DNA of 64,000 nt from Rhizophagus irregularis (GCF_026210795.1 NC_089429.1:5704001-5768000); one strand, 5' to 3'. Shown: positions 16,718 to 63,248, counted from the stretch's first letter. Translations and numbers: made by a program. Notes: generated by a model not told the origin, from the sequence alone.

Positions 16718-16857
16718 CATCCGTTATTTATGTAAAAATGAGCCATTCACAGAAAATGTAAATAATTCGATAAACTCCGTGATATAAGGTTATTAATTTG
16801 AGCCTTTTACGGAAAAAAAGGACGGAATATAAAAAACGGATCGACTTTTTTTTAGAG
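16718..16857 (-). mobile_element. Degenerate reverse-orientation copy of the ~180-bp MITE at the 5' end of the BTB-TLDc pseudogene
   Basis: Reverse-complement similarity to 12602-12779 (ccattcacagaaaatgtaaataattcgataa, aaaaaacggatcgactttttt). Confidence 0.75.
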
Positions 16858-18273
16858 ATAAAATTGCCAAAATATACTAATGCTATTACAATTGAAGTTG
16901 TTAATGACCCTTGCGTAAAATTTTTCGACTAATATGGTCATTTTAAATTATCGTTCTCCTTATTTGCGAAGAATTTTATTAAAAATAATGGAATTTTGGC
17001 ACACAAAAAATTACCAAATATTTTACCTGAATTTTTCAAATAATCTTAAAGTGAGAGAATTGAAGTAAAAAATTTGTGATTTTTTTTTTCTTTTTTTTTT
17101 AAAAAAAAAGAGAATCTTTTTATTTTACGGAATATTCATTTTAGATAATATCTATGAAGGAAGACTTCCTTTAGAGGAGCATGATACTTTAGATATTATT
17201 GAACTTTGGTGAACTTAATCTTCAAGAATTAATCATTGATTCACAATCATTTTTAATTGAGAACAAAATTTTATCGTGATATATTAAAATTTCCAAAATA
17301 CCAGAAAAATTTTTAATTCAACGATTTTAATTCAATTCTAACAGAAAAATGTCTGATCTCACTTATTCAACAATTCAACATGACAACGAATGATATTCAA
17401 GTTTGGGAACATGCACTTTAATGGGATATTGTCCAAAATTCCGATCTTCCTTCCTTCAGACCTTCAAAATTATTCAAAAGATGATTTTAGTACTTTAAAA
17501 AAATACTTTGTAACAATTTATTCCTTTCATTAAATTTTATAATTTATGCTTAAATTATGTATGGTTGAAGTTTAATTAATAAATGTATTCTTTTATGCTT
17601 TATTACATATTGTGAATGTTTTGAATGTCTCAAGCGCTTGTCTCATTATATTAATTTTACGACCTTCTCCATATAAAAAAATCATACCTAGTAAGAAATT
17701 ACGTGAAAATTTAATTAAATATTTTTTAAATCCTAGTAAAAATCTAACAAGAATTTTGTGATGATCTCATAATATAACAATTATTAAAGTGAAAGATAGC
17801 AATGAAATTCTTGGGGATATAATCCGATCGTATGGAAGTCTGGTGGCTGATATGGCATCACTGAAGATAGTTTATCATATTCACATTTAAGAACGAAAAT
17901 TATATTTAGTCGAATATCAGTTGTAATAATCAAATCGGTTACGGTCCATCATACTGGTTGCGACCTTAAATTTGTGGAATAGTTTATATTATTATACCGG
18001 ACGTTATAACAAATCAATTAGAGAAACTATCCTGTAAAAAAAGTCATTCAGTTTTTATATTCCATCTTTTTTTATCTTTTTTTCCGTAAAAAGCTCATGT
18101 TTCCGGAATTAATAACCTTATATCACGGAATTTATCGAATTATTTATATTTTCCGTGAATGGACCCGTGAAAAGCTCATTTTTACGGGAGAAATAACGGA
18201 TAAAATTTTTTATAGGGCTAATGGACACTTTTTTGTAGAAGAATATGAAGTATTTCTAATTATGAAAAATTGA
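16857..18273 (+). pseudogene. BTB-BACK-TLDc pseudogene
   Basis: Collinear with 19224-20713 (attgaagttg..aatgaccc, intron, gtttgggaacatg, gaagaatatgaagtattt) but carries many deletions, frameshifts, stops and a MITE insertion. Confidence 0.92.
18030..18217 (+). mobile_element. 188-bp CCC..GGG MITE inserted in the TLDc-coding part of the pseudogene
   Basis: TCCTGTAAAAAA...TTTTTTATAGGG with TSD CTA. The paralogue near 20650 shows the empty site agagaaaCTAatgg. Confidence 0.93.
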
Positions 18274-19096
18274 TTCATATTTTTGATGCCAGTATAATAT
18301 ATGTATAAGTATTATTTATTAATTGTTGCGACAATAACTAAAATGATATTTTATCATTTTCAGTAATTACGAATAAGTAATTTAACATATAGTATTTATA
18401 TATGTTATATATGGTATTTTATATGAGATTAGCAAGTAATAAAAATTGATAATTATTATTTATATCTTTTCTAAGACAAATCTATATTTTGTATTTTAGT
18501 AGTAAAATTATTTATAATAATATATTTTGAAGCTTGATACTAAGGTGATAATTTAAATAATAAATTTCTTTAATTATATGGTTGGTAATATTGATTTATT
18601 AGTTTTAACATGTTTAGTAAATAATTCAAATATACATTTCTAAATCCTATTATGATGATAGTGAAATCTGTTATAAAGAAAGTATATCCGGAACATTCAG
18701 ATTGTTATTATCTTCAATAGATTCACCATTTCACCTCCCCGTCAGTGGTATATCAGATACCACTCAGAAACCTCAAATGATATATATATTATATAATTAT
18801 ATTGAGATCCTTTAGTCGTTCTGGAGGTTCTGATAACGTTTGTTCTGACGACTTACATCGCTCCGCTCAAATCTTTATAGCAACCGTCAATTCAAAATAG
18901 TAAATTTCGTATTAGTCTTAATTTGAAAATTAACAAAATTTTTTATACTCTGTATGATTATAATAAAATTAACTTTGGTAGTTACTTTCTCCAATTTTCT
19001 TACGAAAGGGCAAACCTTTGTGAGTGTAAGTAAGAAAGTTTAAGTTTATGATATTTCAATTATTTCTCCAAAATAAATAAGATATGTGCTATATAA

Positions 19097-19223: not shown

Positions 19224-20713
19224 ATGTGCGATAATAAATTTTTGCCAAAATTATCACAAAATTTACTAGAAATTTTAGAAGATAATGAATTTTATGATAT
19301 AACTATTGAAGTTGGTAATGACCCTTACGTAAAAATTTTTCGAGCTCATATGGTCATTTTAAATTATCGTTCTCCTTATTTGCGAAGAATTTTATCAACA
19401 AGCGTTAATAAAAATAAAAATGATGGAAGTTTGACACATATTAAATTACCAAATATTTCACCGGAAATTTTTCAAATGATCTTAAGGTGAGTAAAAACTT
19501 AGCGTTTTTTTTAAAAAAAAAAGAGTAATTTAAACTTTACGGAAATATTCAAATTTTTTTTTTCCGTTTTAGATATATTTATGGAGGAAGTCTTTCTTTA
19601 GAGGAATATACTAATACTTCGGACATAATTAAAATTTTGGTCGCTTCCAGTGAACTTAGTCTTCAAGAATTAATCACTCATCTAGAATTATTTTTGATAG
19701 AAAAAAAAAAAAATTGGATGGAACAAAATTTTAACTTGATATATAAAATAAGTTTTGAGAATGGCTCTTTCTTGGAATTGCAAAATTTTTGTAGAGAATT
19801 AATATCTAAAGAACCAGAAAAAATTTTTAATTCAAAAGATTTCAATTCAATTTCAGAAAAATGTCTGATTTCACTTATTCAACACGATAATATTCAAATG
19901 AATTATATCAAAGTTTGGGAACATGTACTTAAATGGGGTATTGCTCAAAATCCTGAACTTCCTTTAGATCCTTCTAGTTATTCAAAAGATAATTTTATTA
20001 CCTTAAAAAATACTTCACAACGTCTTATTTCTTCTGTCAATTTTTATAATTTAAATTCTGAAGAATTTTTGAATAATGTATATCCATATAAAAAAATTAT
20101 ACCTAAAGAATTACGTGAAAATTTAGTTAAATATTTTTTGAATCCTAATAACCAATCAATTAATTCAAAAAGTATAGACTCAAGAATAATTACGATACAG
20201 CATACCGAATTAATATCGAAATGGATTGATAGATTAGAAATCACTGACAAGATGAAAAGTTCATATGAATTCAATTTGATTCTTCGTGGATCTCGTGATG
20301 GGTTTTCGCCTAATAAATTCCATGAGATTTGTGATAATCAATCTCATACTATAACAATTATTAAAGTGAAAGATAGCAACGAAATCCTTGGAGGATATAA
20401 TCCAATCATATGGAAATCTGATGGTGGTTTTGATACCACTAAAGATAGTTTTATATTCTCTTTTAAGAATAAGGAAAATATTAAAAATTGTATTTTAAGT
20501 CGAATATCAGCATATCTTGAAGATTGTGCTATATTCAATAACATGGATTACGGTCCATCATTCGGTGCTGGTTGCGACCTTAAATTGTATGGAGACAATT
20601 GTTATGATCAGAGTGAATATCGTCATACTAGATGTTATAACAAACCAATTAGAGAAACTAATGGTCATTTTTCTGTTGAAGAATATGAAGTATTTCAAAT
20701 TACGAAAAATTGA
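19224..20713 (+). CDS. BTB/POZ-BACK-TLDc protein A, exons 19224-19486 and 19573-20713, ~467 aa
   Basis: BTB (DITIEVG..FRAHMVIL..RSPYL; phase-2 intron in ILR|YIYGG), BACK (VWEHVLKWG) and TLDc (LILRGSRDGF..FHEICD, GGYNP, SFIFSF, GPSFG, VEEYEVF). The splice restores the frame. Confidence 0.93.
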
Positions 20714-22618: not shown

Positions 22619-24110
22619 ATGTATGATAAAAAATTTTTACCAAAATTATCTAAAAATTTACTAGAAACTTTAGAAGATAATGAATTTTATGATACAACTA
22701 TTGAAGTTGGTAATGACCCTTACGTAAAAATTTTTCGAGCTCATATGGTTATTTTAAATTATCGTTCTTCTTATTTGCGAAGAATTTTATCAACTAGAGC
22801 TAATAAAAATAAAAATGATGGAAGTTTGACGCATATTAAATTACCAAATATTTCACCGGAAATTTTTCAAATGATCTTAAGGTGAAAAATTTCAGTTAAC
22901 GATTTTTCTTGTTTTCTTTTTTTTTTTAAAAAAAAATATTTAATTATTTTCATTTAGATATATATATGGAGGAAGACTTTCTTTAGAGGAATATGATACT
23001 ACGGATATAATTAAAATTTTGGTCGCTTCAAGCGAACTCGATTTTCAAGAATTAATCATTCATTTACAATCATTTTTAATTGAAAACAAAGAAAGTTGGA
23101 TGGAACAAAATTGTAGTTTGATATATAAGACAAGTTTTGAGAATGATTCTTTCTCAAAATTACAACATTTTTGTAGAGAATTAATATCTAAAGAACCAGA
23201 AAAAATTTTTAATTCAAACGATTTCAATTCAATTTCAGAAGAATGTCTGATTTCACTTATTCAACACGATAATATTCAAATGGATGTTATTCAAATTTGG
23301 GAACATATACTTAAATGGGGCATTGCTCAAAATCCGGAACTTCCTTCAGATCCTTCTAATTATTCAAAAGATGATTTTATTACCTTAAAAAATACTTTAC
23401 AACGTCTTATTTCTTCTATCAAATTTAATAATTTAAATTCTGAAGAGTTTTTGGATAATGTATATCCATATAAAAAATTAATACCCAAGGAGTTACGTGA
23501 AGATTTGATTAAACATTTTTTGAATCCTAAAAACCAATCAATTGAAAATTTGAATAATTCAAAAAGTATTGACTCAAGAATAATTACGATACAGCATACC
23601 GAATTAATATCGAAATGGATTGATAGATTAGAAATTACTGACGAGATGAAAAGTTCATATGAATTCAATTTGATTCTTCGTGGATCTCATGATGGGTTTT
23701 CGCCTAATAAATTTCATGAGATTTGTGATAATCAATCTCATACCATAACAATTATTAAAGTGAAAGATAGCAACGAAATCCTTGGAGGATATAATCCAAT
23801 CATATGGAAATCTGATAGTGGATTTGGTTCCACTAAAGATAGTTTTATATTCTCTTTTAAGAATAAGGAAAATATTAAAAATTGTATTTTAAGTCGAATA
23901 TCAGAAGATCTTGAAGATTGTGCTATATTTAATTGCATGAATTACGGTCCATCATTCGGTGCTGGTTGCGATCTTAAATTGTGTGGAGACAATTGTTATG
24001 ATAAGAGTGCATATTATCATACTAGATGTTATAACAAACCAATTAGAGAATCTAATTGTCAATTTTTTGTTGAAGAATATGAAGTATTTCAAATTATGAA
24101 AATTGATTGA
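22619..24110 (+). CDS. BTB/POZ-BACK-TLDc protein B, exons 22619-22881 and 22958-24110, ~471 aa
   Basis: Same motifs and intron position as gene A; in-frame splice. Confidence 0.92.
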
Positions 24111-27555: not shown

Positions 27556-28416
27556 AGTTAGAAAAATTCAATTAATAAAGGTTAAATGTGATAATTAGAT
27601 ATTTTTACCAACAGTTTACCTTAGTCATTGTTTATTTACTCACTTTGTTGGTAATTAATTTGTTTATATTAGATGTTTGTTACATTGGCGATTTGGCGTA
27701 AATCTATTTATAATTTAATTTTAGCGTTTCAGAACATAATTCACATGTAACAATTGCACAGTGATGTAACATCTAATAAATAATATTTCGAATTCACTAT
27801 TTTTTACAATAGAGGCGCTTAATTTTTTGAGTATATGTTAATTTTCAATGTTGAGAATTATATCGATGATATTTTCCGATCTGATGGTCGTGGAAAAATA
27901 AAATTTAGTTCATAGGATTCGTCTCAATGAAATGAATCCAATGGTATAAATTTCATAATTTTTTGAATGAATATTTATTATTATCAAAAGGCGCTTATTT
28001 TAGGTTAAAGAAAATACGGTAATTCACATGCAACTCACAGTGACGACAGTGACGTATCAAAGATACATGCAACTTCTGCATATATGTATAATGACAATCA
28101 CATTTAATTAGGGGAATCTTTATTTGTAAATATTTGTATTATTCTTTTATTGAATAAATTATTACGTTATTTGAATAAGATAACAAAAGCGGTTAATTAA
28201 CTTTGACATTATTAACCATTCCATCTTGTTAAAAATTTACATATATCCATGTAAATACATAATTAATAAATTTTTGATTGAAATATTTTTATTTAAATGG
28301 CAAATTTGACATCAGATTTGGATTCTCTTTAAAAAAAAAAAATACCTTTTACTTTACGCTCAGTTTTTAATATAACAGATAATTTGTTACCCTACATATA
28401 GTAGTAACTATACCAA

Positions 28417-29742
28417 ATGAGAAAGAAGGGTCCTATTTGGAACCATTTTACTATAGAAAGTAAAGATTACAATTCTCATCCTCATGTACGATGCAATTAC
28501 TGTTCAAAAGATTTTCAACGAGCCGTTCCTGAACGAATGCAAGCTCATGTTGACAAGAAGTGCTCAAAAGCACCAAGTAATGTGAAACAACAAAATACTA
28601 TGATATCAATAACTGACAACAATGGTTTCCATATGAGTGAAAAAGAACAAAGCTCTCTTGAATCTTTACTAACAAAAAAGCTATCTTCATCTGAAGTTCT
28701 CCTTTCTTTTGTAAATAATCCGGTAATAATCCAGTTTTTTCAACATCTTTGCCCAACCGTCAAATTGCCAAATAAAAATGTGGCAAACATGCCAATAGAT
28801 GAAATAGATGATAGCGATGATGGAAGAAAATCTGAATTTTATTATCAAAATGAAATAAGAACCGAAGAAATTGAGATTCAATCGTTTAAATCATTTAAGA
28901 GAGAAGCAAAAAACAATCATATTGATTCAATCTATAATCTCGGATGTTGTTATCATTACGGAATGGGAACTGAGAAAAATGAAATTAAAGCATTTAAATT
29001 ATATAAGGTATCAGCTGAGAAAAATCATGTTAACTCAATGTATAATCTTGGATATTGTTACCAATATGGAATAGGAACCGAAAAAAATGAAGTTAAAGCG
29101 TTTGAATCATATAAAAATGCAGCTGAGCGTGGCCATATCGATTCAATATATAACCTTGGAGAATGTTACTATAATGGAATAGGTACTGAAGAAAATGAAA
29201 GTAGAGCAGTTGAGCTTTATGAAAAAGCAGCTCAAAAGGGTCATATTATTTCAACCTATAATCTTGGATGTTGCTATCATCAAGGAACAGGAATTGAAAA
29301 AAATGAAATCAAAGCATTTGAATTATATAAACAGGCCGCTGAGCGTGGTCATATTGATTCAATGTACAATCTTGGAGAATGTTATTACAATGGAATAGGA
29401 ACCGAGGAAAATAAGATTAAAGCATTTGAAGTATATGAAAAAACAGCTACTATTAAAGGAGATGTTGATTCAATAAATCGTCTTGGAATTTGTTATGAAA
29501 ATGGAATAGGTACTGAGAAGAATGAAGTTAAAGCATTTGAATTATATAAAGAAGCAGCTGAAGAAGGTGACACTAACTCAATAATTCGACTTGGGCATTG
29601 TTATCGACATGGAATAGGTATTGAAAAAAATGAAACTAAAGCATTTGAATTGTATAAAGCCGCAGGATATATAAAGCCAGAAAAAAATGATAAAATTGAT
29701 AAAGATTATCTGTCTAGCTATCATCATAACAATTGTTGTTAG
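28417..29742 (+). CDS. BED zinc finger / hAT-transposase N-terminus fused to seven Sel1-like repeats, 441 aa
   Basis: GPIWNHF...CNYC...H....C (zf-BED), then LSFVNNPVIIQFFQHLCPTVKLP (hAT DNA-binding/dimerisation-like segment), then 36-aa repeats YNLGxCYxxGIGTEKNExKAFELY. Single uninterrupted ORF. Confidence 0.9.
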   Translation: MRKKGPIWNHFTIESKDYNSHPHVRCNYCSKDFQRAVPERMQAHVDKKCSKAPSNVKQQNTMISITDNNGFHMSEKEQSSLESLLTKKLSSSEVLLSFVNNPVIIQFFQHLCPTVKLPNKNVANMPIDEIDDSDDGRKSEFYYQNEIRTEEIEIQSFKSFKREAKNNHIDSIYNLGCCYHYGMGTEKNEIKAFKLYKVSAEKNHVNSMYNLGYCYQYGIGTEKNEVKAFESYKNAAERGHIDSIYNLGECYYNGIGTEENESRAVELYEKAAQKGHIISTYNLGCCYHQGTGIEKNEIKAFELYKQAAERGHIDSMYNLGECYYNGIGTEENKIKAFEVYEKTATIKGDVDSINRLGICYENGIGTEKNEVKAFELYKEAAEEGDTNSIIRLGHCYRHGIGIEKNETKAFELYKAAGYIKPEKNDKIDKDYLSSYHHNNCC

Positions 29743-29871: not shown

Positions 29872-30912
29872 GCCTAGCATTACCGTAAAAATGGTAGCCA
29901 GATTTGTTGCCAGGTTACACGATCTGAGCACATGATCCGGATTAATATTATTACCTACATTACTTATGATATACTAATTTATATTGACTAAATTTATATT
30001 TTGGCTAACACAATGCAACATACTGCGCCAAGGTTATATAATTAGACCAATTTAACCTGAAAATTTTTTAAAATTTTTGGTTTGATAACTAAAAAAAATT
30101 CGTGAAATTATTTTTTGTTAATTAATTTAAATATATTTCTTTAATGCCAAAAAAATTTATAAACTTATTTATTCTAGGTACTTTTATTTTATTATTTATT
30201 GTAATAAACTATTATTTTACCCACTTTCGCTATATTTTATTGTTAACTTGATTTTCGCTGAATAATTTATAATTTATTCTTATACATTATCAATATTATT
30301 AAACTTGCTACAATACATTGTATTATGGGCGTGGATGTAATATTTTTGTGAGAATATTTAATGCTAATTCAATATTTATTGTCTTGGTATATCTCTTACG
30401 ATGGATGTTTTCTAGAACTGAAAGTATATCAAAAGAAGAGAGTCCTTTTTCTGATTCTTAATATGGTAAACCCATATGTAACCATCACTTTCTGATATAA
30501 CAGTAAGAGATATCATATAACGCCCAATTTTACAATTAATATTTTCAATATTTTCACTATCATTATTTTCTAAAATTACATTAACTAATTGTTGATAACT
30601 CTATTTATTATCTAAATAGGTTAAGAAATTATACATGGTTTCTGTTATATCCTGCATAGCTAATTATCGTGTCAGGTTTTATATTTTTATTTTTTATTGA
30701 ATGTGATCTTCAGCCTTTGCAACTTTCTCTAGTACAATGACATCCTTTACAAACCTTATTTTGTTGTTAACAATTTAGAAAAATATTTATTTTGTAAAGC
30801 ATAAAGGATCCAATCAGATTAATATAAGTTTATAATTACCGAAAATAATCGTCCGGATCATGTGCACAAATCATGTGTGCAAATCATGTGTAACCTGGCA
30901 ACAAATCTGACC
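29872..30912. mobile_element. ~1-kb non-autonomous DNA transposon
   Basis: Exact 22-bp inverted repeat CAGATTTGTTGCCAGGTTACAC (29899) / GTGTAACCTGGCAACAAATCTG (ends 30909). The body is the reverse complement of 1815-2829. Confidence 0.8.
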
Positions 30913-32116: not shown

Positions 32117-34215
32117 CACAGGTCAAATAAATAAAAATCAGATTTTTGCCCTTTTTAATATGGCTGTCTGATTTTTTGGCAATTTTAATATAATATTTCC
32201 GATTTTAATAAATATTTCTAATTTTAATATAATATTTCTGATTTTTAACATGAAATTGCCGATTTTGGTTATTTGTAATAGGATTTTTCAATTTTAATAT
32301 AAAATTTCTGATTTTAATATATAACATGTGATTATGTATTACGGTTTAATATTTATTTATTAACTTAGATTTTTTTTTTATTTCAGTTATAATTATTTTT
32401 TTGCCTCAAAAACTTTACTAAAATACTTTTTAAATACTTTATAAAATAGAATTAAAATATTTTTTTTCTTAAATATAAATACATTTAAATTAAGTAACTC
32501 ATAATTTAAAATATAAACAAATATTATATTTTTTTTACATATATTTCAAAGTATGGTTTGAGCATTTCGGCTGAAGTAAATCTTATTCTTTTAATTAAAA
32601 GTAGTTTAGTAAGTTTAAAACTGTTAAGAACATAAAAGTATAGTTAATATTTTTGGAATTATTTACATTTTTTATATAATACAGTAGTATTAAGTTACAA
32701 ATTTTTTTACTTTCAGAGCGTATTTTGAGATCTTTAGCCAAAGTAAATCAACTTCTTATATTAATTGTAAGTTGTTCAGCAAGTTAAAATCTACTTGGAT
32801 ATTAATTTTCACGAAGGTACGAAGGTACAGTTAATACTTGATGAGTTATTCACAATTTTCACAACAGTACTCATTCACGAATTTTATTTTTTTCATTTTG
32901 TCACTTCAGAGCGTATTATAAGCACTTTATCCAAAGTAAACCAACTTCTTATATTAATTGAAAGTTGTTTAGCATGTCAAAATCTACTTGAATATTAATT
33001 TTCACAAAGGTACAGTTAATTCTTGATGAGTTACTTACGATTTTCACAATGGTACTCATTTACGAATTTTATTTTTTTCCGTTTTGTCACTTCAGAGCGT
33101 ATTTTGAGCACTTTAGTCAAAGTAAATCGACTTCTTTTATTAATTGAATGTTGTTTAGCATGTCAAAATCTACTTGAATATTAATTTTCACGATGGTACA
33201 GTTAATACTTAATGAATTATTCACGATTTTCACAATGGTACTCATTTACGAATTTTATTTTTTTCCGTTTTGTCACATCAGAGCGTATTTTGAGCACTTT
33301 AGTCAAAGCAAATCGACTTCTTTTATTAATTGAAAGTTGTTCAGCAGGTCACAATCTACTTGGATATTAATTTTCACGAAGGTACAGTTAATACTTGATG
33401 AGTTATTCACGATTTTCACAATGGTACTCATTTACGAATTTTATTTTTTTCCGTTTTGTCACATCAGAGCGTATTTTGAGCACTTTAGTCAAATTAAATC
33501 GACTTCTTTTATTAATTGAAAGTTGTTCAGCAGGTCGCAATCTACTTGGATATTAATTTTTATGAAGGTACAGTTATTACTTGATGAGTTATTCACGATT
33601 TTCACAACGGTACTCATTTACGAATTTTATTTTTTCTATTTTGTTACTTCAGAGCGTATTTTGAGCACTTTAGCCAAAGTAAATTGACTTCTTTTATTAA
33701 TTAAAAATTGTTCAGCAGCTTAGAATCTACTTGAATATTTATTTTAATGAAGACACAGTTAATATTTGTGGAGTTATTAATTTTTTATAATTGTGCGTAT
33801 TACATTGAATTACAAGTAAATTTATATTCTTAATGTATTTTGTTTAAAATTTAATTATTTAAGATTAGTTTTTTATTTAATATTGCTTAATAAAATATTT
33901 TTTAAAATTTAATTCAATATTACAATATAATTTTTTATAAAAATATATATTTCATAATATATATACAATTTTTTTGTATAGTGAAAAAACTGAAAAATGT
34001 GGTTAAGAATTAATAATACGGCTGTAAAAAGTCACAAATCGGACAAATATAGCTAAAATCAGCAGTCTGATTTGAATATGCAATTTAAAAATTGGCATAT
34101 CCAATTTTTGTCAATTCATGCTAAAAAATCGGCTACAAAATGCTACAAATCAGACAAATATAGCCAAAAATTGGCTATCTGATTTTTTTGCCAATTTTTA
34201 TTTATTTGATGTGTG
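32117..34215. mobile_element. 2.1-kb non-autonomous element with CAC..GTG termini nested in the 5.5-kb element
   Basis: TIR CACA(GG/CA)TCAAATAAATAAAAAT with 3-bp TSD ATA; subterminal (T/C)GATTTT / AAAATC(A/G)G repeats. Confidence 0.85.
32545..33790. repeat. Tandem array of ~186-bp units (~6.5 copies)
   Basis: The TCAGAGCGTATT anchor recurs at 32713, 32906, 33092, 33278, 33464 and 33649. Confidence 0.95.
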
Positions 34216-47103: not shown

Positions 47104-48629
47104 ATGTATGATAATAAATTTTTGCCAAAATTATCACAAAATTTACTTGAAATTTTAGAAGATAATGAATTTTATGATATAACAATTGAAGTTGGTAATG
47201 ATCCTTATGTAAAAATTTTTCGAGCTCATATGATTATTTTAAATTATCGTTCTCCTTATTTACGAAGAATCTTATCAACTAGCGTTAGTAGAAATAATAA
47301 TGATGGAAGTTTAACACATATTAAGTTACCAAATATTTCACCGGAAATTTTTCAAATGATCTTAAGGTGAGAGAATTGAAGTAAAAAATTTAGCGATTTT
47401 TTTTTTTTAAAAAAAAACTAATATTTTAAAATTTACGAAAATATTCAAAATTTTTCATTTAATATTTTCGTTTTAGATATATCTATGGGGGAAGGCTTTC
47501 TTTAGAGGAATATGATACTTCGGATATAATTAAAATTTTGGTCGCTTCCAGTGAACTTAGTCTTCAAGAATTAATCACTCATTTACAATTATTTTTAATC
47601 GAAAATAAAAAAAATTGGATGGAACAAAATTTTAACTTGATATATAAAACAAGTTTTGCGAATGATTCTTTCTTAAAATTACAAGATTTTTGTACAGAAT
47701 TAATATCTAAAGAACCAGAAAAAATTTTTGATTCAATCAACTTTATTTCACTTTCAGAAAAATGTTTGATTTCTCTTATTCAACATGATAATATTCAAAA
47801 GAATGTTATTCAAGTTTGGGAACATGTACTTAAATGGGGTATTGCTAAAAATCCTGGACTTCCTTCAGATCCTTCTAATTATTCAAGAGATGATTTTATT
47901 ACTTTAAAAAATACTTTACAACAATTTATTCCTTTTATTAATTTCTTTAATTTAACTTCTAAAGAATATTTAGATAAAGTATATCCGTACAAGAAAGTTA
48001 TACCAAAAGATTTGCGTGAAAATTTAATCATACATTCTATTGATCAACCGAAAAATAATCCAGAACCAAAAATAATTACCAAAGAGACTAGTTCAAAAAG
48101 TATTGATTCAAAAATCATTACAATCAAACATGCTAAATTGATATCGAAATGGATTGATAGATTAGAAATTACTAACAAGATGAAAAATTCATATGAATTT
48201 AAGTTGATTCTTCGTGGATCTCGTGATGGATTTTCATCTCAAAAATTCCATGAGATTTGTGATTATCAATCTCATACTATAGCAATTATTAAAGTGAAAA
48301 ATAGCAATGAAATCCTTGGTGGATATAATCCGATTGTATGGAAATCTAATGATACATTTGGCGCCACTAAAGATAGTTTTATATTCTCTTTTAAGAATAA
48401 GGAAAATATTGAAAATTATATTTTAAGCCGAGTAAAGAATGAAACATATGCTATAGTAAATAATCTTGGATTAGGTCCATCTTTTGGTGATGGTGACCTT
48501 AAATTACGTGGAAATAATTATAGTTGGAGCGTTTGTCGTTATACCGGATTTTATGACAAATTTATTAGAAAAGTCAGCGGTTTGTTTTCTGTAGAAGAAT
48601 ATGAAATATTTCAAATAATTAAAGATTGA
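47104..48629 (+). CDS. BTB/POZ-BACK-TLDc protein C, exons 47104-47366 and 47477-48629, ~471 aa
   Basis: Same motifs and intron as gene A; in-frame splice. Confidence 0.93.
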
Positions 48630-49138
48630 TTAATATTTCTAATGATTAAAGGCGCCAATGTAAATATTCTGTATGATATATATATATTTTGTTATTTTTT
48701 AATAATTACCATTTAGGAGTAGTAAAATTTGTTTATCGGTTTTCTGTTTAATTAAAATTCTATTGTTCGCGGAATTTAAGAATTTTTCATCCTATAGTTT
48801 ATCAAAATTTTTATATGTAAAAAATTAGTTTGCGTATTTTTGGGCTAATCTTATATATATAATATATTTACTGAACGTTAACCGCATTGTAATATTTAGT
48901 ATTAATTAAAAGAAATTTCTAAGGATTAAAAAGTGAAATTTTGGAAAAATATTATTGGTTTTATAAATAATATAAGAAGTCATGATAAAATAATTTAAAC
49001 TTAATGCCTGCGTACTACCCATATAAAAAAGTCTCTGCGTACAGCTCATAGTAAAAAAATTTTTCGCCACCTGACCCTTATACTGTATATATATATTTCT
49101 GGGTCCTCCATGCATTGCTTCATAAATTCGACCGGAGC

Positions 49139-49894
49139 GGCCATCCTTAACCTGATCCGCCGGTCCAGATGCTTATTCTGGACTAGTCAACTTTTGATTG
49201 GCTAATCAGCACTTTTTATTACATAACTCCGGCATAATTTATTTTATCTTTCACTCTTCCTATCTTTCACTCTTTCTCTATTCTTTTTTGTGGTATGTTA
49301 GTACTTAGTATTTCATATTTCATTTCAGTTTGTATATTTAATTTTAATTGTATTTATTGTAGTTTTATGATAATACTAAATGTTTTTTATTTTCTTTTTG
49401 AAGAGTTTTATGATACAGTATATTGATATTATTCTGGAAATCAAGTTGTTTTTTTTAAAAAAAAAAGCTTTGGGGTTAAGCGAAGTTGTTCAAAAAAGGT
49501 TGTAAATTACACATTTATAACATTACTTATAAAGCTAATATAATATTACTTTGTACTTTTGTTTTGATATTAACGTTAAAATAATTTTAATAATAATATT
49601 ACAGTAAAAAATAATGTAAAGACCTTTTTTATAAAGTTATATATGCAATTTTACTTATTTAGTATTAATAAAGTTTAATAAAATTCATACCAAAATACAA
49701 AATTTAAATGACATATTACTTTAAAACGGTAGTATTAAATGCTTTTAAAAAAAGGCATTTCGTAACTTTTTTTAAAAAAACGCGAATTGTGTTTTTTTTT
49801 TTTTAAAGACAAATGTTACACAAAACAATCTCATCCAATTAGATTTGCTGGTCTAGGATAAGCATCTGGACCGTGGCCCAGGATAAGGATGCTC
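49139..49894. mobile_element. 756-bp non-autonomous Mutator-like element
   Basis: ~48-bp imperfect TIRs (G..CATCCTTA.CCTG...GGTCCAGATGCTTAT) and an exact 9-bp TSD GACCGGAGC (49130-49138, 49895-49903). Confidence 0.85.
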
Positions 49895-50041
49895 GACCGG
49901 AGCAGAATACTCTTAACAATCACGTGATTTAATTTTTGAGTCAGGTGTTTCGGTATTTTTTGGAGCCGAAATTTACCAAATAAATCGATAAATCGTTCAC
50001 AGTTCAACAATATTCTACTTTATTTCTTGAAAGGACTTATA

Positions 50042-51564
50042 ATGTACGATAATAAATTTTTACCAAAATTAACACAAAATTTACTTGAAATTTTAGAAGA
50101 TAATGAATTTTATGATATTACTATTGAAGTTGGAAATGACCCTTACGTAAAAATTTTTCGAGCTCATATGGTCATTTTAAATTATCGTTCCCCTTATTTG
50201 CGAAGAATCTTATCAACTAGCGTTAGTAGAAATAATAATGATGGAAGTTTGACGCATATTAAATTACCAAATATTTCACCAGAAATTTTTCAAATGATCT
50301 TAAGGTGAGAGAATTGAAGTAAAAAATTTAGCGACTTTTTTTTTTTAAAAAAAAAACGAATATTTTAAATTTTACGAAAATGTTCATATTTTTCATTTAA
50401 TATTTTCGTTTTAGATATATCTATGGGGGAAGACTTTCTTTAGAGCAATATGATACTTCGGATATAATTAAAATTTTGGCCGCTTCCAGTGAACTTAGTC
50501 TTCAAGAATTAATCACTCATTTACAATTATTTTTGATCGAAAATAAAAAAAATTGGATGGAACAAAATTTTAACTTGATATATAAAACAAGTTTTGATAA
50601 TGATTCTTTCTTGAAATTACAAGATTTTTGTACAGAATTAATATCTAAAGAACCAGAGAAAATTTTTAATTCAGTCGATTTTATTTCACTTTCAGAAAAA
50701 TGTTTGATTTCTCTTATCCAACATAAAAATATTCAAAAGAATGTTATTCAAGTTTGGGAACATGTGCTTAAATGGGGTATCGCTCAAAATTCTGGACTTT
50801 CTTCAGATCCTTCTAGTTATTCAAAAGATGATTTTATTAATTTAAAAAATAATTTACAACAATTTATTCCTTTTATTAATTTCTTTAATTTAACTTCTAA
50901 AGAATATTTAGATAAAGTATATCCGTACAAAAAAGTCATACCAAAAGATTTGCGTGAAAATTTATTTAAATATTTTATGGATCAGCAAAGTAATAACCCA
51001 GAACCAAAGATAACAACCAAAGAGACCAGTTCAAAAAGTATTGATTCAAAAATCATTACAATCCAACATGCTGAATTAATATCGAAATGGATTGATAGAT
51101 TAGAAATTACTGACAAGATTAAAAATTCATATGAATTTAAATTGATTCTTAGTGGATCTCGTGATGGGGTTTCGCCTAGTAAATTCCATGAGATTTGTGA
51201 TAATCGATCTCATACTATAACAATTATTAAAGTGAAAAATAGCAACGAAATCCTTGGTGGATATAATCCGATAATATGGAAATCTGATCCTAGCTTTGGC
51301 ATTACTAAGGATAGTTTTATATTCTCTTTTAAGGGTAAGGAAAATATTGAAAATTATATTTTAAGCCGAGTAAAATATGAAAATTTTGCTATATACAATG
51401 ACTCTGGATTTGGTCCATGTTTTGGTGATGGTGACCTTAAATTAAGTGGAGAAAATTACGAACTGAGTTGTTCTTATATTGAATGGTATGACAAACCAAT
51501 TAGAGAAACCGAAGGTTATTTTTTTGTAGAAGATTATGAAATATTTCAATTTATTAAAGATTGA
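50042..51564 (+). CDS. BTB/POZ-BACK-TLDc protein D, exons 50042-50304 and 50415-51564, ~470 aa
   Basis: Same motifs and intron; tandem duplicate of gene C. Confidence 0.93.
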
Positions 51565-53420: not shown

Positions 53421-53545
53421 TGCATTTTTTCATAATTAATCATGTGATTAGCCTTGAGTCAGGTGTTTCGGTAATTTTGAGTACCAAATCAATAACTTGG
53501 CGTTCACAGTTCAACAATATTCTACTTTCTTAAAAAATACTAATA

Positions 53546-53731
53546 ATGTATGATAATAAATTTTTACCAAAATTATCACAAAATTTGCTTGAAGTCTTAG
53601 AAGATAATGAATTTTATGATATTACTATTGAAGTTGGAAATGACCCTTACGTGAGAATTGGTCGAGCTCATATGGTCATTTTAAATTATCGTTCCCCTTA
53701 TTTGCGAAGAGTTTTGTCGACTAACGTTTAA
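53546..53731 (+). pseudogene. Truncated BTB gene (first 61 codons only)
   Basis: Matches exon 1 of the paralogues up to RRVLSTNV, then unrelated sequence. The upstream region resembles that of gene D. Confidence 0.9.
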
Positions 53732-54230
53732 ATTTCAAAATGTGCTGGTTTTGTGTCGGTGATTACATGAATATATGTACCGGTTTTCTCAGCAATGGGT
53801 TTTAGGTTACATCCTTCACGACCAATCAATCTTCCCAATTGAAAATATGTATAGGGATCAACGTTTTTTCTGAAAAAAAAAAGGCAGGACTTTGATGGGA
53901 ACTTTTAAGTAAGTCTATGATCGTATTTAATAATGATCATCTAGAACGACATGAAAAAAGTATTATTTGTTGAAAAGATGTCGGGTATTTGTAGCAACAA
54001 TAAAAACAAGATCTTTTTTTTTTGAGAGTATCTCGCATAAATTACATGTAAGATATGTAAGTCAAAATTTATTTGATTATTATCGACCCTTATTGAGTTT
54101 ACACTACATCCAAAATTGCTGACGCAAGGATTAAGAGTGTGATAAATACCACCTTGTAGCGATAAACCGCAGATCTTTAACGATACAAAATCGATTGTTT
54201 GAAGTACTAACAAAGAAATTTTTCATGTTT
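53729..54230 (-). pseudogene. KH-domain protein fragment
   Basis: Minus strand 53872-53729 reads RKNVDPYTYFQLGRLIGREGCNLKPIAEKTGTYIHV (KH GxxG loop, IGREG). The upstream part is frameshifted or uncertain. Confidence 0.65.
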
Positions 54231-55080: not shown

Positions 55081-56567
55081 TCAATTTTTCATAATTTGAA
55101 ATATTTCATACTCTTCTACAGAAAAACGATTTTTGGTATCTCTAATTGGTTTTTCGTAATCAAAATTACAGCAACTACTCTCATCATAACAATTGTCTCC
55201 ATACAATTTGAGGTCACCGACACCAAATGAAGGACCAGAGTAAGCACTATTATCTATAGCATATTTTTTATTTTTTACTCGACTTAAAATATATCCATTA
55301 ATATTTTCCTTATTCTTAAAAGAAAATATAAAACTATCTTTAGTAACGCTATCACTATAATCAGATTTCCATATGATCGGATTATATCCTCCAAGAATTT
55401 CATTACTATCTTTTACTTTAATAATTGAAATTGTATGAAATTTATTATCACAAATCTCATGAAATTTACTAGGTGAGAATCCATCACGAGATCCACGAAG
55501 TATTAAATTGAATTCATATGGATTTTTTATCTCTTCCGTAATATCTAATTTATCAATCCATTTAGAGATTAATTCAGCATGTTGAATTGTGATTATTTCT
55601 GAATCAATACCTTTTGATCCAACTTCTTTAGTCATCATTGGTTCTGGATTATCACTTGACTGATTTACAAAATGCTTAATTAAATTTTCACGTAAGTCTT
55701 TTGGTAAAATCTTTTTATACGGATATACTTTTTCTAAAAATTCATTATGATTCAAATCGAAGAATTCAATAAAAGGAATACATTGTTGTAAAGTACCTCT
55801 TAAAGTAATAAAATCTTCTTTCGAATAACTCGAAGGATCTGAAGGAAGTCCAGGATTTTGAGCAATACCCCATTTAAGTACATGTTCCCAAACTTGAATA
55901 ACATCCATTTGAAAATTATCATGTTGAATAAGAGATATCAAACATTTTTCTGAAAGTGAAATAAAATCGATTGAATTAAAAATTTTTTCCGGTTCTTTAG
56001 ATATTAATTCTGTACAAAAATTTTGTAATTTCAAGAAAGAATCATTCTCAAAACTTGTTTTATATATAAAGTTAAAATTTTGTTCCATCCAATCTTTTTT
56101 GTATTCAATTAAAAATGATTGTAAATTAATAATTAATTCTTGAAGACTAAGTTCACTAGAAGCAATTAATATCTTAATAATATCTGAAGTATCATATTCC
56201 TCCAAAGAAAGTCTTCCTCCATAAATATATCTAAAATGAAATTTTCGAATATTTCCGTAAGTATCAATAAAAAAAGTCGTCATAATTTATTTCAATTCTC
56301 TTACCTCAATATCATTTGAAAAGTTTCAGGCAAAATATTTGGTAATTTAATATGTGTCAAGACTCCATCATTTTTATTTTTATTAATGTTAGTTGATAAT
56401 ATTCTTCGCAAATAAGGAGAACGATAATTTAAAATCACCATATGAGCACGAAAAATTTTTACGTAAGGGTCATTACCAACTTCGATAGTAATATCATAAA
56501 ATTCATTATCTTCTAAAATTTCAAGAAAATTTTGAGATAATATTGGTAAAAATTTATCATCATACAT
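55081..56567 (-). CDS. BTB/POZ-BACK-TLDc protein E, exons 56567-56305 and 56230-55081, ~470 aa
   Basis: Same motifs and intron position; in-frame splice. Confidence 0.93.
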
Positions 56568-58699: not shown

Positions 58700-60188
58700 T
58701 CAGTCTTTCATAATTTGAAATACTTCATACTCTTCTACAGAAAAATCCTTGTCTGTATTTCTAATTGGTTTGTCATAATGAATACGAAAGCAATAACTTT
58801 CATTAAAACAATTGTTTCCACACAATGTAAGATCACCTTCACCAAATAAAGGACCATAATCAGCGCAATTATTTATAGCATAATATTTATTTATTACTCT
58901 ACTTAAAGTATAATTATCAATATTTTCCTTATTAAAAGAGAATATAAAACTATCTTTAGTAACGCTAACACTATAATCAGATTTCCATATATTCGGATTA
59001 TATCCTCCAAGAATTTCATTACTATCTCTCACTTTAATAATTGAAATTGTATGAGATTTATTATCACAGATTTCATGGAATTTACTAGACGAAAATCCAT
59101 CACGAGATCCACGAAGAATCAACTTAAATTCATATGAATTTTTCATATTATCAGTAATTTCTAATTTATCAATCCATTTAGAGATTAATTCAGCATGTTG
59201 AATTGTAATGATTTTTGATTCAATACTTTTTGATCTAACTTCTTTAGTTATCTTTGGCTTCATTGGCTGATTTATAAAATGTATGATTAAATTTTCACGT
59301 AATTCTTTTGATAAAACCTTCTTATAAGGATAAACGTTGACCAAAAATTCTTTATTGTTTAAATTGAAGAATTTAATAAAAGGAATACATTGTTGTAAAG
59401 TACTCCTTAAAGTAATAAAATCACCTTTTGAGTAGTTTGAAGGATCTGAAGGAAATCCAGGATTTTGAGCAATACCCCATTTAAGTAAATGCTTCCAAAC
59501 TTGAATAACGTTCGTCTGAACGTTATCATGTTGAATAAAAGAAATTAAACATTTTTCTGAAAGTGACGTAAAATCGATGGAATTAAAAATTTTTTCTGGT
59601 TCTTTAGACATAAGTTCTATACAGAAATTTTGTAATTCTAAAAAAGATCCATTCTTAAAATTTGTCTGATATATTAAGTTAAAATTTCGTTCCATCCAAT
59701 TTTTCCTATTTTTAATCAAAAATAATTGTAAATGAATGACTAATTCTTGAAGACCAAGTTCATTGGAAGCGATTAAAATCTTAATAATATCTGAAGTATC
59801 ATATTCCTCTAAAGAAAGTCTCCCTCCATAAATATATCTAAAAATGATAAATATTCGAATATTTACATAGTAAGTATCAATAAAAAAAAAAAAGTCGTCA
59901 TAATTTATTATTTCAATTCTCTTACCTCAAAATCATTTGAAAAGTTTCAGGTAAAATATTTGGTAATTTAATATGTGCCAAGACCCCATCATTTTGATTT
60001 TTATTAATGTTAGTTGATAAAATTCTTCGCAAATAAGGGGAACGATAACATAAAATCACCATATGAGCACGAAAAATTTTTACGTAAGGATCATTACCAA
60101 CTTCAATTGTAATATCATAATATTCATTATCTCCTAAAATTTCAAGTAAATTTTGTGATAATTTTGGTAAAAATTTATTATCATACAT
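58700..60188 (-). CDS. BTB/POZ-BACK-TLDc protein F, exons 60188-59926 and 59837-58700, ~466 aa
   Basis: Same motifs and intron position; in-frame splice. Confidence 0.93.
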
Positions 60189-61738
60189 TATAAAAAACTT
60201 TGATTGATTTTTTTTTTAAAGAAATATAGAATTTATCACAATTTGGCTAAACTGTAACACTTTATTCTATCGGAATATTTTAACCCGAAATCACTAATCA
60301 CGTTACCTAAAACGGTAAAACCATATTGTAGCTGAATAATATTAGAAAGCAAAAAAGTTGTGATGAAGATTTGGGAGAGAAGACACGAGTTCTTCACACA
60401 AAATTAGTAAAGAGGATTCGAGTCAAACAAATCATGTAAGCGGCGTAACAAGAAAAAAAGAAGATCGGAGACACAAACATTCCCGAGATTCCGGTTAAAT
60501 TAACAACCGACGACATCGACGTAGCTTATCTAAAAAAAAAATTTCCGCTGTTCCACGTGACTTAACGTTACTTTCCAAGGACGAGGAAAAAATGAAAATT
60601 TGAAGCAGGTAGCTTATATAGAAAGTTTACAAGTTAAACGAAGTTATAAGTATAAGACTTTCGAGCCAAACTTCGCTTTACCAAAACATGTGAAAATATA
60701 CATAAGGTGAAGATTATTACTTCAGAAGGTTTAACTTGATTTTATAGTATAGAACAAGAATCTTATGTATTAATTTAGATTTATAGATACTTTATTGACG
60801 CAATGTATTTACGTTGATATGGAGATTAATTACGATTGAGTACTAATTATCTCTATACCAATTAAGTTTTAATTAAAAAAAAAGATAAAGTGCCATTTTT
60901 GTTGTACAATGTCACGTGCGAAGGAAAAAATATCATTCTTTGATATGTTTATATCATTTTTCTTAATAGAACATATATTACATATATTTATGATTATTAT
61001 TGATATATCAAGAATGATACTTTATCTGGACGGTATGTATTTATTTTCCTGAAAATTTTTGGGGCAATCATATAAAAATAATCAAATTTCAAACGCTTAT
61101 AACTTTTTATGTAGATATTTTTTTGAAAATCTGACCGGTAATTTAATAGTACTTGTCTTGTAGAACAAAGTTACCGGTTTATTTCTTTGAAATTCTATTT
61201 TATTAAAGTGTTGAAAGATTTATAAGTATCACAATTTTATTTTTGAGTATAGAGTTCCGGCACCATATAAAGTTAAAACTGAGATTCAAACCTCCTTATA
61301 CCCTTTAATAGTAGTTAAGTAAACTTGAAAAACACTTTTTAAATCGTGATCTATGAGTCAATCGCGAAGGATCTGTAGAAAATGGGAATCTAAAAGTCGA
61401 GATGATTTATATGAGCTTTTGCTATTGGTGGATGATAATCAATACATTGGAAAAATAAAGACAAAATTGAAAGGAAAAAAAAAATAATTATTATACAGTA
61501 AAATACTACTAGTGATCAACATAAATCTGCACCGAAATTAAATTTTTTTTTTTTTTGAAAATTGCCGCGCCACAAATCTGTTGCATAAAATTTTACCCGT
61601 TTCACATGATTTGCTGTTTAAGCTGACTGCTGTGTTCTGTTTCAGATGTTTAGTACTACATATGTACTACATATGAAAAAAAAAAAAAATCTTATTTCAT
61701 TTCTTGATTTCATTTCTTGAAAGTACGAAATACGAATA

Positions 61739-63248
61739 ATGTATGATAATGAATTTTTACCAAGATTATCTCAAGATTTACTTGAAATTTTAGAAAACAA
61801 TGAACTTTTTGATATTACTATTGAAGTTGGTAATGACTCGAAAACTTTTCATGCTCATATGATCATATTGATCTGCCGTTCCCCTTATTTGCGAAGACTT
61901 ATATCAACTAACGTTAACGTTAATAAAAATAAAAATGAACGTATTAAATTACCAAATATTTTACCTGAAACTTTTCAAATGATATTGAGGTAAGAGAATA
62001 GAAATAATAATTATGACGACTTTTTTTTATTGATACTTACGGAATTATTCGAATATTTTCATTTTTAGATATATTTATGGAGGAAGACTTTCTTTAGAGG
62101 AATATGATACTTCGAATATTATTAAACTTTTAATTGCTTCCAATGAACTTAATCTACAAGAATTAATCACTCATTTACAATTATTTTTGATCAAAAACAA
62201 AAAAGACTGGATGGTACAAAATTTTAGCTTGATATATAATACAAGCTTTGAGAAGGATTCTTTCTTGGAACTACAAAATTTTTGTAAAGAATTTATGTTT
62301 AAAGAACCAAAAAAAATTTTTGATTCAAGAGATTTTACTTCGCTTCCAGAAAATTGTTTGATTACTCTTATTCAACATGAAAATTTTCAAAATAATGTTA
62401 TTCAAGTTTGGGAACATGTACTTGAATGGGGTATTGCTAAAAATCCTGAACTTCCTTCAGATCCTTCTAATTATTCAAAAGATGATTTTAAGAACTTAAA
62501 GAATACTTTACAACAATCAATTCCCTTTATTAAATTCAATAATTTGAGTCATCAAGAATTTTTGGATAAAGTATATCCATATAAAAAAATTTTACCAAAA
62601 GATTTACGTGATGAATTAATTAGGCATTTTATAAACCAGTCAACTAATAGGCCAGAACCAAAGACTACCAAAGAAAATGATTCAAAAAATATTGATTCAA
62701 AAATCATTACAAAACAGCATGCTGAATTAATCTCTAAATGGATTGATAAATTAGATATTAAGGACGAGATAGAAAATCCTTATGAATTCGAATTAATACT
62801 TCGTGGATCTCGGGATGGATTCTCCCCTAAGAAATTCCATGAGATCTGTGATAATAAATCTCATACTATATCGATCATTAAAGTGAAAGGTAGCAATGAA
62901 ATCCTTGGAGGTTATAATTCGATCATATGGAAATCTGATGATAAGTGGGGTACTACTAAAGATAGTTTTATATTCTCTTTTAAGAATAAGAATAGTATTA
63001 AAAATTATACTTTAAGTCGAGTAAAATCTGAGGTGTGTGCTATAGATAATGACCCTGCACACGGTCCATCATTTGGTTCTAGTGACCTTGAACTGTATGA
63101 AAACAATCGTGGAGGTGCGTTCGGTCCAGTACATTATGAAACATCGATTAGAAGCACCAATGGTGAATTTTCCGTAGAAGAATATGAAATATTTCAAATT
63201 ACGAAAGAATGTGAGCCTGAAGAGGAATCAAATTGTAATATATCTTAA
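61739..63248 (+). CDS. BTB/POZ-BACK-TLDc protein G, exons 61739-61989 and 62069-63248, ~476 aa
   Basis: Same motifs with small in-frame indels in BTB and an acidic C-terminal extension. Confidence 0.92.

What the first reader, a model, noticed from the sequence alone, without database searches (positions are those of the whole stretch)
16857..63248. BTB-BACK-TLDc array with CDR-like hypervariable segments: candidate diversified Cullin-3 recognition (immune-like) system
Seen: seven intact and three dead paralogues share a conserved scaffold, but the TLDc C-terminal half varies at about five fixed short segments. After WKS: DGGFDT/DSGFGS/NDTFGA/DPSFGI/DYSDSV/DYSVSV/DDKWGT. Between LSR and AI: ISAYLEDC/ISEDLEDC/VKNETY/VKYENF/VKNKKY/VINKYY/VKSEVC. 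Between AI and GP: FNNMDY/FNCMNY/VNNLGL/YNDSGF/DNSAYS/NNCADY/DNDPAH. The other two are the stretch from DLxL to Y..IR (with length variation) and the residues after IR. Invariant framework (TKDSFIFSF, GPxFG, DL, VEEYE.FQ) separates them. Established: BTB-BACK proteins are Cullin-3 adaptors whose C-terminal domain picks substrates; nematode and plant F-box and MATH-BTB families show birth-death evolution with positively selected substrate domains; animal TLDc proteins include V-ATPase binders and the interferon-induced NCOA7 short isoform and IFI44. Inference: TLDc is used here as a variable binding scaffold that sends foreign proteins (viral, endobacterial, transposon or plant-derived) for ubiquitination. 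The family expansion in these fungi is known; I do not know of a description of this hypervariability.
Basis: partly seen in the sequence, partly recalled or inferred. Interest (0 to 1): 0.88.

Follow-up and report, generated by a model that had tools for sequence, protein, structure and literature searches.

The report
Fungal ubiquitin adaptors with hypervariable face
In the plant-root fungus Rhizophagus, a row of duplicated genes keeps a constant scaffold while about 27 positions of one domain (TLDc) diverge sharply between copies, likely under positive selection and likely on its partner-binding face, which would make this large gene family a repertoire of predicted ubiquitin-ligase adaptors, possibly for foreign proteins.

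Summary
Observation confirmed: seven intact BTB-BACK-TLDc genes and three relics, identical to proteins labelled Rhizophagus irregularis. In 99 independent homologues, 26 of the 27 most variable sites lie in the TLDc C-terminal half. Codon models (own code, 7 genes) find positive selection there only: 21-26% of sites at omega about 3.3, LRT 13.5-19; BTB, BACK and TLDc N-half give LRT about 0, with equal synonymous depth. It survives indel removal, multi-hit models, leave-one-out and conversion nulls, but is episodic and vanishes if the variable codons get their own dS. Two variable sites align with mEAK-7 residues that touch the V-ATPase, three more fall in variable segments by interpolation: likely the canonical TLDc binding face. 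Correction to 'CDR-like': most alleles keep their loops (6 of 64 differences); a few slots swap specificity between isolates. Cul3 binding, expression and substrates are untested; the immune role is inference. The expansion is published (read as oxidative protection); I found no description of this selection in nine searches. New variant of a known kind.

The parts
16880..18029 (+). relic 1: decayed BTB-BACK-TLDc copy with many stops and frame changes
19224..20713 (+). g1, intact BTB-BACK-TLDc gene, 467 aa, intron 19487-19572
   Evidence: identical to P0123
22619..24110 (+). g2, intact gene, 471 aa, intron 22882-22957
   Evidence: identical to P0039; modelled
47104..48629 (+). g3, intact gene, 471 aa, intron 47367-47476; numbering reference; its slot holds a different-loop gene (P0004) in a second isolate
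48228..48242 (+). g3 residues 339-343: invariant Gly339 (equivalent of NCOA7 G815 / mEAK-7 G276) next to 343, the only hypervariable site of the TLDc N-half
48348..48365 (+). g3 variable segment 1 (379-384); 380/381 align with mEAK-7 P316/Q317
48435..48449 (+). g3 variable segment 2 (408-412)
48456..48473 (+). g3 variable segment 3 (415-420)
48489..48551 (+). g3 variable segment 4 (426-446), carries indels between copies; alternating variable/fixed residues at 430/431/432 and 440/441/442
48561..48584 (+). g3 variable segment 5 (450-457); 457 has posterior 0.99-1.0 for omega above 1
50042..51564 (+). g4, intact gene, 470 aa, intron 50305-50414; nearest paralogue of g3 yet 21 of 26 variable sites differ
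53535..53742 (+). relic 2: BTB start (61 codons) then a stop; this slot holds an intact gene (P0003) in a second isolate, inferred from consecutive accessions
55081..56567 (-). g5, intact gene, 470 aa
57584..58013 (+). relic 3: short decayed BTB/BACK pieces
58700..60188 (-). g6, intact gene, 466 aa
61739..63248 (+). g7, intact gene, 476 aa, with an acidic tail ending in a CaaX-like motif (63234-63245)

Best explanation
These are tandem BTB-BACK-TLDc paralogues whose TLDc C-half diverges sharply between copies, likely under positive selection, and which are predicted to act as Cullin-3 ubiquitin-ligase adaptors that likely use the TLDc partner-binding face to pick a different target each, possibly foreign or selfish proteins. 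Mechanism: (1, shown) duplication in arrays, loss of some copies, differences in copy content between isolates; (2, shown statistically, own code) amino-acid change above the synonymous rate at about a quarter of TLDc C-half codons, in bursts on some branches, while the scaffold stays under purifying selection; (3, partly shown) gene conversion between neighbours evens out the scaffold and now and then mixes loop blocks; (4, inferred) the variable residues form the surface that mEAK-7 lays on V-ATPase subunits A and E; (5, inferred from fold) BTB-BACK dimerises and recruits Cul3, so whatever the face binds is ubiquitinated; (6, inference by analogy) the moving targets are non-self. My odds: step 2 about 0.85, step 4 about 0.8, step 5 about 0.75, step 6 about 0.5.
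For: Entropy map in 99 independent homologues. Whole-gene LRTs over three codon-frequency models: M1a/M2a 12.0-14.1, M7/M8 28.4-30.9, M8a/M8 7.3-15.7. Region by region, each on its own tree: TLDc C-half M2a LRT 13.5 and 19.0, omega 3.2-3.4 at 21-26% of 93 codons; BTB, BACK, TLDc N-half LRT about 0; synonymous tree length 0.73-0.93 per codon in all four. Sites fixed beforehand from other proteins: omega 1.9-2.5, LRT 14.6-44.3; 1.7 and 2.3 with double and triple hits allowed. Without indel-bearing stretches LRT 12.8; 40 of 40 null simulations (20 with conversion tracts) gave at most 3.8. Leave-one-out LRT 7.6-23.2; without g3 and g4, 6.4 and 8.7. Eight metagenome loci repeat the pattern: C-half LRT 30.7 and 21.2, N-half 0 and 0.1, 8 of 10 top sites in the same set. 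Tyr at 10% or more at 13 of 27 variable sites against 4 of 35 other variable sites. TLDc fold Z 14-20 to 11 entries; mEAK-7 P316/Q317 align to 380/381 (contacts from PMC9263379). Top fold matches of the whole model are Cul3-bound KBTBD2, KLHL22, KLHL11 (TM 0.72-0.75 on the BTB-BACK target). Slot swaps between isolates: g3/P0004 19 of 25 variable sites, P0146/P0031 8 of 26 with only 2 BTB changes. Precedent: nematode F-box and MATH-BTB (passage in PMC4334554).
Against: If the variable codons are given their own synonymous rate, omega falls to 0.4-1.2 and is not above 1 (LRT 0.3-3.3); third-position C/T differences are 0.21 there against 0.11-0.16 in the other domains (permutation p 0.079). The signal is uneven: of 6 of 21 pairs fitted, g3-g4 gives omega 8-12 and g1-g3 3.6-4.9, but g1-g2 and g5-g6 give 0.7-1.1. 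In the eight distant loci the pre-set sites average only 0.78 and 1.41. Recombination is present (PHI-like p about 0.001) and can inflate site tests beyond what my simple nulls cover. Only 6 of 64 differences in seven allele pairs hit variable sites, which is not what a fast ongoing arms race at every locus predicts. Pfam BACK passes its cut-off in 1 of 3 full proteins. No relative was found in viral or prokaryote collections that might hint at a conflict partner. The conserved V-ATPase glycine leaves a V-ATPase-centred role open.
Confidence: 0.5

Rival explanations
1. V-ATPase-centred guards or decoys: the proteins still dock on the V-ATPase B subunit through the invariant glycine loop, and the variable face next to it evolved to read or intercept other proteins that bind there, or to mimic the host TLDc regulator as bait.
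For: Gly339 is invariant in 99 of 99, Gly369 in 99 of 99, Glu464 in 97 of 99, position 341 Ser/Thr in 87 of 99; they align with OXR2 G673, G703, E796, S675, equal to NCOA7 G815, G845, E938, S817, and G815A abolishes V-ATPase binding (PMC8608904; also G91A in 10.1101/2025.04.01.646557). A subclade including g7 ends in a CaaX-like motif that would anchor it to membranes.
Against: That glycine also sets a tight turn between helices, so it may be kept for folding. Contacts to subunits A and E map on the variable segments, whereas in Oxr1 many interface residues are strictly conserved (PMC8804929); a fixed host enzyme would not drive hundreds of different faces.
Confidence: 0.15
2. Same adaptors, but the targets are the fungus's own fast-evolving proteins (its expanded kinases, Sel1 proteins, transposon products) or non-self nuclei in hyphal fusion; diversification is a one-off division of labour after each duplication.
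For: Loops are mostly kept between isolates and, for g2 and g4, in R. diaphanus (3 of 27 and 5 of 26 differ); selection is episodic; kinase, Sel1 and BTB families are co-expanded (PMC8647823).
Against: High death rate (3 relics for 7 genes) and slot swaps between isolates fit disposable specificities better than housekeeping control.
Confidence: 0.17
3. No adaptive diversification: redundant copies with free surface loops, while gene conversion keeps resetting the scaffold, so loops look faster than they are.
For: Own-dS fit removes the signal; omega near 1 in two pairs; conversion is evident: three neighbours in the second isolate share Arg37 where g3 and g4 have Lys, and g2/P0131 differ at 13 BACK sites but 2 BTB sites.
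Against: Framework codons between the loops are not older than the rest (C/T 0.128 against 0.111-0.157; equal synonymous tree lengths); N-half loops and the BACK-TLDc linker show no such sites; composition departs from neutral drift (Tyr 12.4 against 8.0%, Leu 3.1 against 13.0%); most orthologous loops are retained.
Confidence: 0.13
4. The published reading: many TLDc copies protect the fungus from reactive oxygen, by dosage.
For: Stated for the up to 400 TLD copies of Glomeromycotina in PMC10079182 (passages); conserved TLDc residues are retained.
Against: Dosage predicts uniform copies, not positive selection on one part; it does not account for the BTB-BACK module; TLDc is now read as a protein-interaction module.
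Confidence: 0.05

Closest known systems
Nematode F-box and MATH-BTB cullin adaptors (seen as a passage in PMC4334554 citing the original study; the original not read)
   Same: Birth-death arrays; positive selection in the substrate domain and none in the cullin-binding domain; proposed detection of foreign proteins.
   Different: Substrate domain is TLDc, C-terminal to BTB-BACK; host is a coenocytic mycorrhizal fungus.
BTB-BACK-Kelch Cul3 adaptors (KLHL11, KBTBD2, gigaxonin; vaccinia A55)
   Same: BTB then helical BACK; best sequence and fold matches; database names call these proteins 'Kelch-like protein 17'.
   Different: No Kelch propeller: TLDc takes its place. Cul3 binding not shown here.
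TLDc V-ATPase regulators (OXR1/Oxr1, NCOA7, mEAK-7/Rtc5, TBC1D24; IFI44 listed as a TLDc protein in PMC12139955)
   Same: Fold (Z up to 20, rmsd 2.3-2.8) and the conserved Gly/Ser/Glu residues.
   Different: Few copies with a conserved binding face there; here hundreds of copies, fused to BTB-BACK, with that face likely hypervariable.
Published expansions of TLD and BTB/BACK domains in Glomeromycotina (PMC10079182, PMC3886924, PMC8647823)
   Same: Same family, same organisms, tandem arrays.
   Different: In the passages read the domains are counted apart and read as oxidative protection or signalling; no selection map or substrate-face idea.

Membership tests
BTB-BACK Cul3 adaptors | N-terminal BTB domain | tested here: met
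   Pfam BTB 66-76 bits against cut-off 20.5 in 3 of 3 full proteins
BTB-BACK Cul3 adaptors | 3-box/BACK helices after BTB | tested here: met
   Helical region 118-281 in the model; TM 0.72-0.75 to KLHL11 BTB-BACK; Pfam BACK above cut-off in only 1 of 3
BTB-BACK Cul3 adaptors | BTB homodimer | not tested
BTB-BACK Cul3 adaptors | Binds Cul3 and ubiquitinates a substrate | not testable with these tools
   No Cul3 sequence was obtained (one search found none); needs co-IP and assay
KLHL/KBTBD (Kelch) subfamily | C-terminal Kelch propeller | tested here: not met
   C-terminal domain is TLDc by Pfam and fold
TLDc V-ATPase regulators | TLDc fold | tested here: met
   pLDDT 90.6; Z 14-20 to 11 TLDc entries, next row 4.2
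TLDc V-ATPase regulators | Conserved residues equal to NCOA7 G815, S817, G845, G896, E938 | tested here: met
   G339 99/99, S/T341 87/99, G369 99/99, G425 81/96 (matched by the FG motif, one column off in HMMER), E464 97/99; L926 not mapped
TLDc V-ATPase regulators | Conserved surface for V-ATPase subunits A and E | tested here: not met
   mEAK-7 P316/Q317 align with hypervariable 380/381; T354, Y367, K384 interpolate into variable segments; Y341 uncertain (398-409)
TLDc V-ATPase regulators | Binds V-ATPase | not testable with these tools
   Needs pull-down
Rapidly evolving cullin adaptors (nematode F-box/MATH-BTB type) | Birth-death arrays with dead copies and strain differences | tested here: met
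   7 intact, 3 relics; two slots differ in a second isolate
Rapidly evolving cullin adaptors (nematode F-box/MATH-BTB type) | Positive selection in the substrate domain, not in the cullin-binding domain | tested here: met
   caveat of own-dS fit; own code, NEB only
Rapidly evolving cullin adaptors (nematode F-box/MATH-BTB type) | Foreign substrates | not testable with these tools
   No substrate data
Antigen-receptor-like (CDR) systems | Loop variation at each locus between or within individuals | tested here: not met
   6 of 64 allele differences at variable sites in seven pairs; exceptions at a few slots; within-individual variation not tested
Antigen-receptor-like (CDR) systems | Loops drawn from a shared donor library | tested here: inconclusive
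   Identical loops among distant paralogues within the shuffled range for 6 of 6 segments; near-identical above it for 2 of 6; block sharing seen only among close neighbours

The most novel reading that the evidence does not exclude
Arbuscular mycorrhizal fungi carry an intracellular immune repertoire of hundreds of Cul3 adaptors in which the V-ATPase-binding face of the TLDc fold was turned into a Tyr-rich variable paratope, renewed by duplication, bursts of positive selection and gene conversion between neighbours, differing between isolates, and used to destroy proteins of viruses, endobacteria, transposons or host plants.
Probability: 0.3. Interest if true: 0.88.

Novelty: new variant of a known kind. 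Interest (0 to 1): 0.7.

Why it matters
The function of the huge BTB and TLDc expansions of mycorrhizal fungi is an open question; the published guess is oxidative protection. A map of about 27 selected sites on one likely binding face turns it into a testable one (loop swaps, Cul3 pull-downs, isolate comparisons). If true it adds ubiquitin-based recognition to fungal immunity (a 2023 review, PMC10197012, has no occurrence of 'ubiquitin'), gives TLDc a role beyond V-ATPase control, offers a candidate cause of isolate differences in these crop symbionts, and points to a natural small scaffold with variable loops already wired to a degradation module.

Tried and rejected
No whole genome is held for this window, so genome-wide codon tests were impossible. 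Viral and prokaryote collections gave no relative (49 and 17 pattern matches, 0 confirmed): no sign of capture or mimicry, weak evidence. A search for a Cul3 gene to fold with found 0 matches. Longer fusions: 3 hits among 274 candidates, which look like merged neighbouring gene models; no immune-domain fusion claimed. A shared loop library among distant paralogues is not supported. A run-length test for conversion among the seven genes had no pair significant after correction, although a PHI-like test was. An older, swapped-in TLDc C-half cassette was rejected because synonymous depth there equals the rest. The contrast of cross-species orthologues against paralogues was not significant (p 0.055), that of alleles against g3-g4 was (p 0.002; pairs chosen by hand). 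First M7/M8 fits failed numerically and were redone. Weak antibody hits (E 0.6-1.1) are chance. Earlier findings of the scan: none by sequence or words.
Full report
What is there. The window is AT-rich (GC 0.22-0.30) eukaryotic DNA. It holds seven intact two-exon genes with Pfam BTB, weak BACK and TLD domains and three decayed copies. The seven spliced proteins are identical to database proteins labelled Rhizophagus irregularis. A homologue search gave 2026 hits among 4870 candidates; all named ones among the 120 listed are Rhizophagus or Glomus. The expansion is in print: up to 400 TLD copies in Glomeromycotina, read as protection from reactive oxygen (PMC10079182, passages); BTB and BACK make up about a quarter of annotated AM-specific genes (PMC3886924, one passage); BTB/POZ genes are high-copy, lie near Mutator elements and are among the subgroups with low CG methylation (PMC8647823, passages and section 7).

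The variable segments are real. All quoted strings check out. To avoid circularity I defined variable sites from 99 of the 120 listed homologues that are under 80% identical to every window gene: 27 sites exceed 2.8 bits, 26 at g3 positions 375-471 and one at 343; no BTB or BACK site exceeds 3 bits. It is not a general loop effect: 0 of 34 N-half loop residues against 22 of 63 in the C-half, and four ciliate-coded TLDc genes differ at only 1-2 of 26 equivalent sites. Pairs with 4-8% framework divergence differ at a mean 63% of these sites (11 pairs, range 15-84%). g3 and g4 differ at 4 of 133 BTB residues and 21 of 26 variable sites.

Selection. No PAML or HyPhy was installed; I wrote M0/M1a/M2a/M7/M8/M8a in Python (six beta classes, branch lengths from M0, naive posteriors). 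On 452 gap-free codons of the seven genes all nine LRTs favour a class above 1 (7.3-30.9). Split by region, each with its own tree, only the TLDc C-half shows it (LRT 13.5 and 19.0; omega 3.2-3.4 at 21-26% of codons), and synonymous depth is the same in all four regions. With sites fixed in advance, omega is 1.9-2.5, 1.7-2.3 under multi-nucleotide changes, 2.6-2.9 within the C-half alone. Removing indel-bearing stretches leaves LRT 12.8, and 40 null simulations, half with conversion tracts, reach at most 3.8. No single gene carries the result. Eight of the 21 metagenome loci (the rest partial, frameshifted or ciliate-coded; L001 has a stop upstream) repeat the regional contrast and 8 of their 10 top sites under F3x4 are in the same set. 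Against: with a free synonymous rate for the variable codons omega is 0.4-1.2; their always-silent C/T differences are somewhat raised (p 0.079); two of six pairs fitted sit near 1; pre-set sites average 0.8-1.4 in the distant loci; recombination is present. I read this as real but episodic positive selection, about 0.85.

Alleles. By consecutive accessions on one 131-kb contig of a second isolate, six of the seven genes have near-identical alleles; over seven pairs (those six and P0045/P0138) 6 of 64 differences hit variable sites. g2 and g4 have orthologue-like copies in R. diaphanus with 3 of 27 and 5 of 26 variable sites changed. But the g3 slot holds P0004 (19 of 25 variable sites differ), the relic-2 slot holds intact P0003, and the next gene beyond the window differs from its allele at 8 of 26 variable sites with 2 BTB changes, while a third isolate's copy differs at 0. 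So specificities are mostly stable once set, and isolates differ by gain, loss and occasional replacement. Conversion among neighbours shows in a BTB residue shared by three neighbours of the second isolate and in g3 and P0007 sharing segments 4-5 but not 1-3. 'CDR-like' fits the layout, not the genetics.

Structure. The TLDc model (pLDDT 90.6) matches NCOA7, OXR2, mEAK-7, Skywalker, Oxr1 and Rtc5. mEAK-7 binds the V-ATPase through G276/H277 (subunit B), P316/Q317/T354 (A) and Y341/Y367/K384 (E) (PMC9263379, passages). A profile alignment (E 0.02 on its own, backed by Z 19) puts G276/H277 on invariant G339/F340 and P316/Q317 on hypervariable 380/381. The alignment stops at residue 330; bridging through the OXR2 alignment and the chain ends bounds T354 to 413-423, Y367 to about 426-434 and K384 to about 440-450, all within variable segments, and Y341 to 398-409. 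So the variable residues likely form the canonical partner-binding face, which in Oxr1 is largely conserved (PMC8804929, passages). This is inferred, not measured on coordinates. The sites are Tyr-rich (12.4% against 4.3% at other variable sites and 8.0% neutral), as binding surfaces often are (recalled). The full model (pLDDT 84.7) matches Cul3-bound KBTBD2, KLHL22 and KLHL11 best; by sequence KBTBD2 and gigaxonin are among the top hits. In such adaptors BTB plus the 3-box bind Cul3 and the C-terminal domain binds substrate (PMC3597819, passages). Cul3 binding itself is untested.

Mechanism and rivals. Most likely (0.5): a germline repertoire of Cul3 adaptors whose TLDc face picks different targets, non-self being the likeliest single class. 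Rivals: own fast-evolving targets (0.17), V-ATPase guard or decoy (0.15), neutral loops with scaffold conversion (0.13), oxidative dosage (0.05).

Novelty. [quoted passage not shown] Nine full-text searches showed no paper on BTB-BACK-TLDc proteins or on selection in fungal TLDc; a 2026 TLDc review has no occurrence of BTB, cullin or fungi (PMC13570293) and a fungal-immunity review none of ubiquitin (PMC10197012). Also seen as passages: PMC8608904, PMC12139955, 10.1101/2025.04.01.646557, PMC9174246. The library lacks most subscription journals, where several AM fungal genome papers appear (recalled), and I opened no supplements; either could hold a prior description. Verdict: real feature, new variant of a known kind, interest 0.70.

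Noticed in passing
window 63234-63245 (g7 end): Acidic tail ending in a CaaX-like motif; the same end closes P0042, P0043, P0057, P0146-P0149 although their tails differ in length: a predicted prenylated, membrane-anchored subclade. The CaaX rule is recalled.
   Followed up: partly
window 28408-29739 +: One ORF with a weak BED zinc finger (E 0.003) ahead of seven Sel1 repeats: a possible transposase-derived piece fused to a Sel1 gene.
   Followed up: no
window 1-994, 3105-4913, 13664-15473 (-): Three cytochrome P450 paralogues 83-92% alike just before the array.
   Followed up: no
window 32712-33778; 34417-34736; 35821-36081: A 186-bp unit in 5.7 copies and a partly palindromic 81-95-bp unit in two places, between the two gene blocks.
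   Followed up: no
window about 48770-49900: Between g3 and g4, contigs of depth 200-4700 lie where unique flanks have 10-250: a dispersed high-copy repeat.
   Followed up: no
window 42602-43222 -: Two adjacent ORFs, one with a weak restriction-endonuclease-like hit (HSDR_N, E 0.011); resembles nuclease-fold genes common in these fungi (recalled).
   Followed up: partly
window 44324-45198 +: ORFs of 108 and 179 aa without Pfam match.
   Followed up: partly
window 2053-2653 and 30036-30710; 12603-12780, 16710-16852, 18031-18611: Short dispersed repeats shared between distant parts of the window, some flanking relic 1.
   Followed up: no
ESM Atlas: A cluster of 100 proteins with the same BTB-BACK-TLD set whose few recorded members are Cnidaria (phylum known for 3): the architecture may exist outside fungi.
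   Followed up: no
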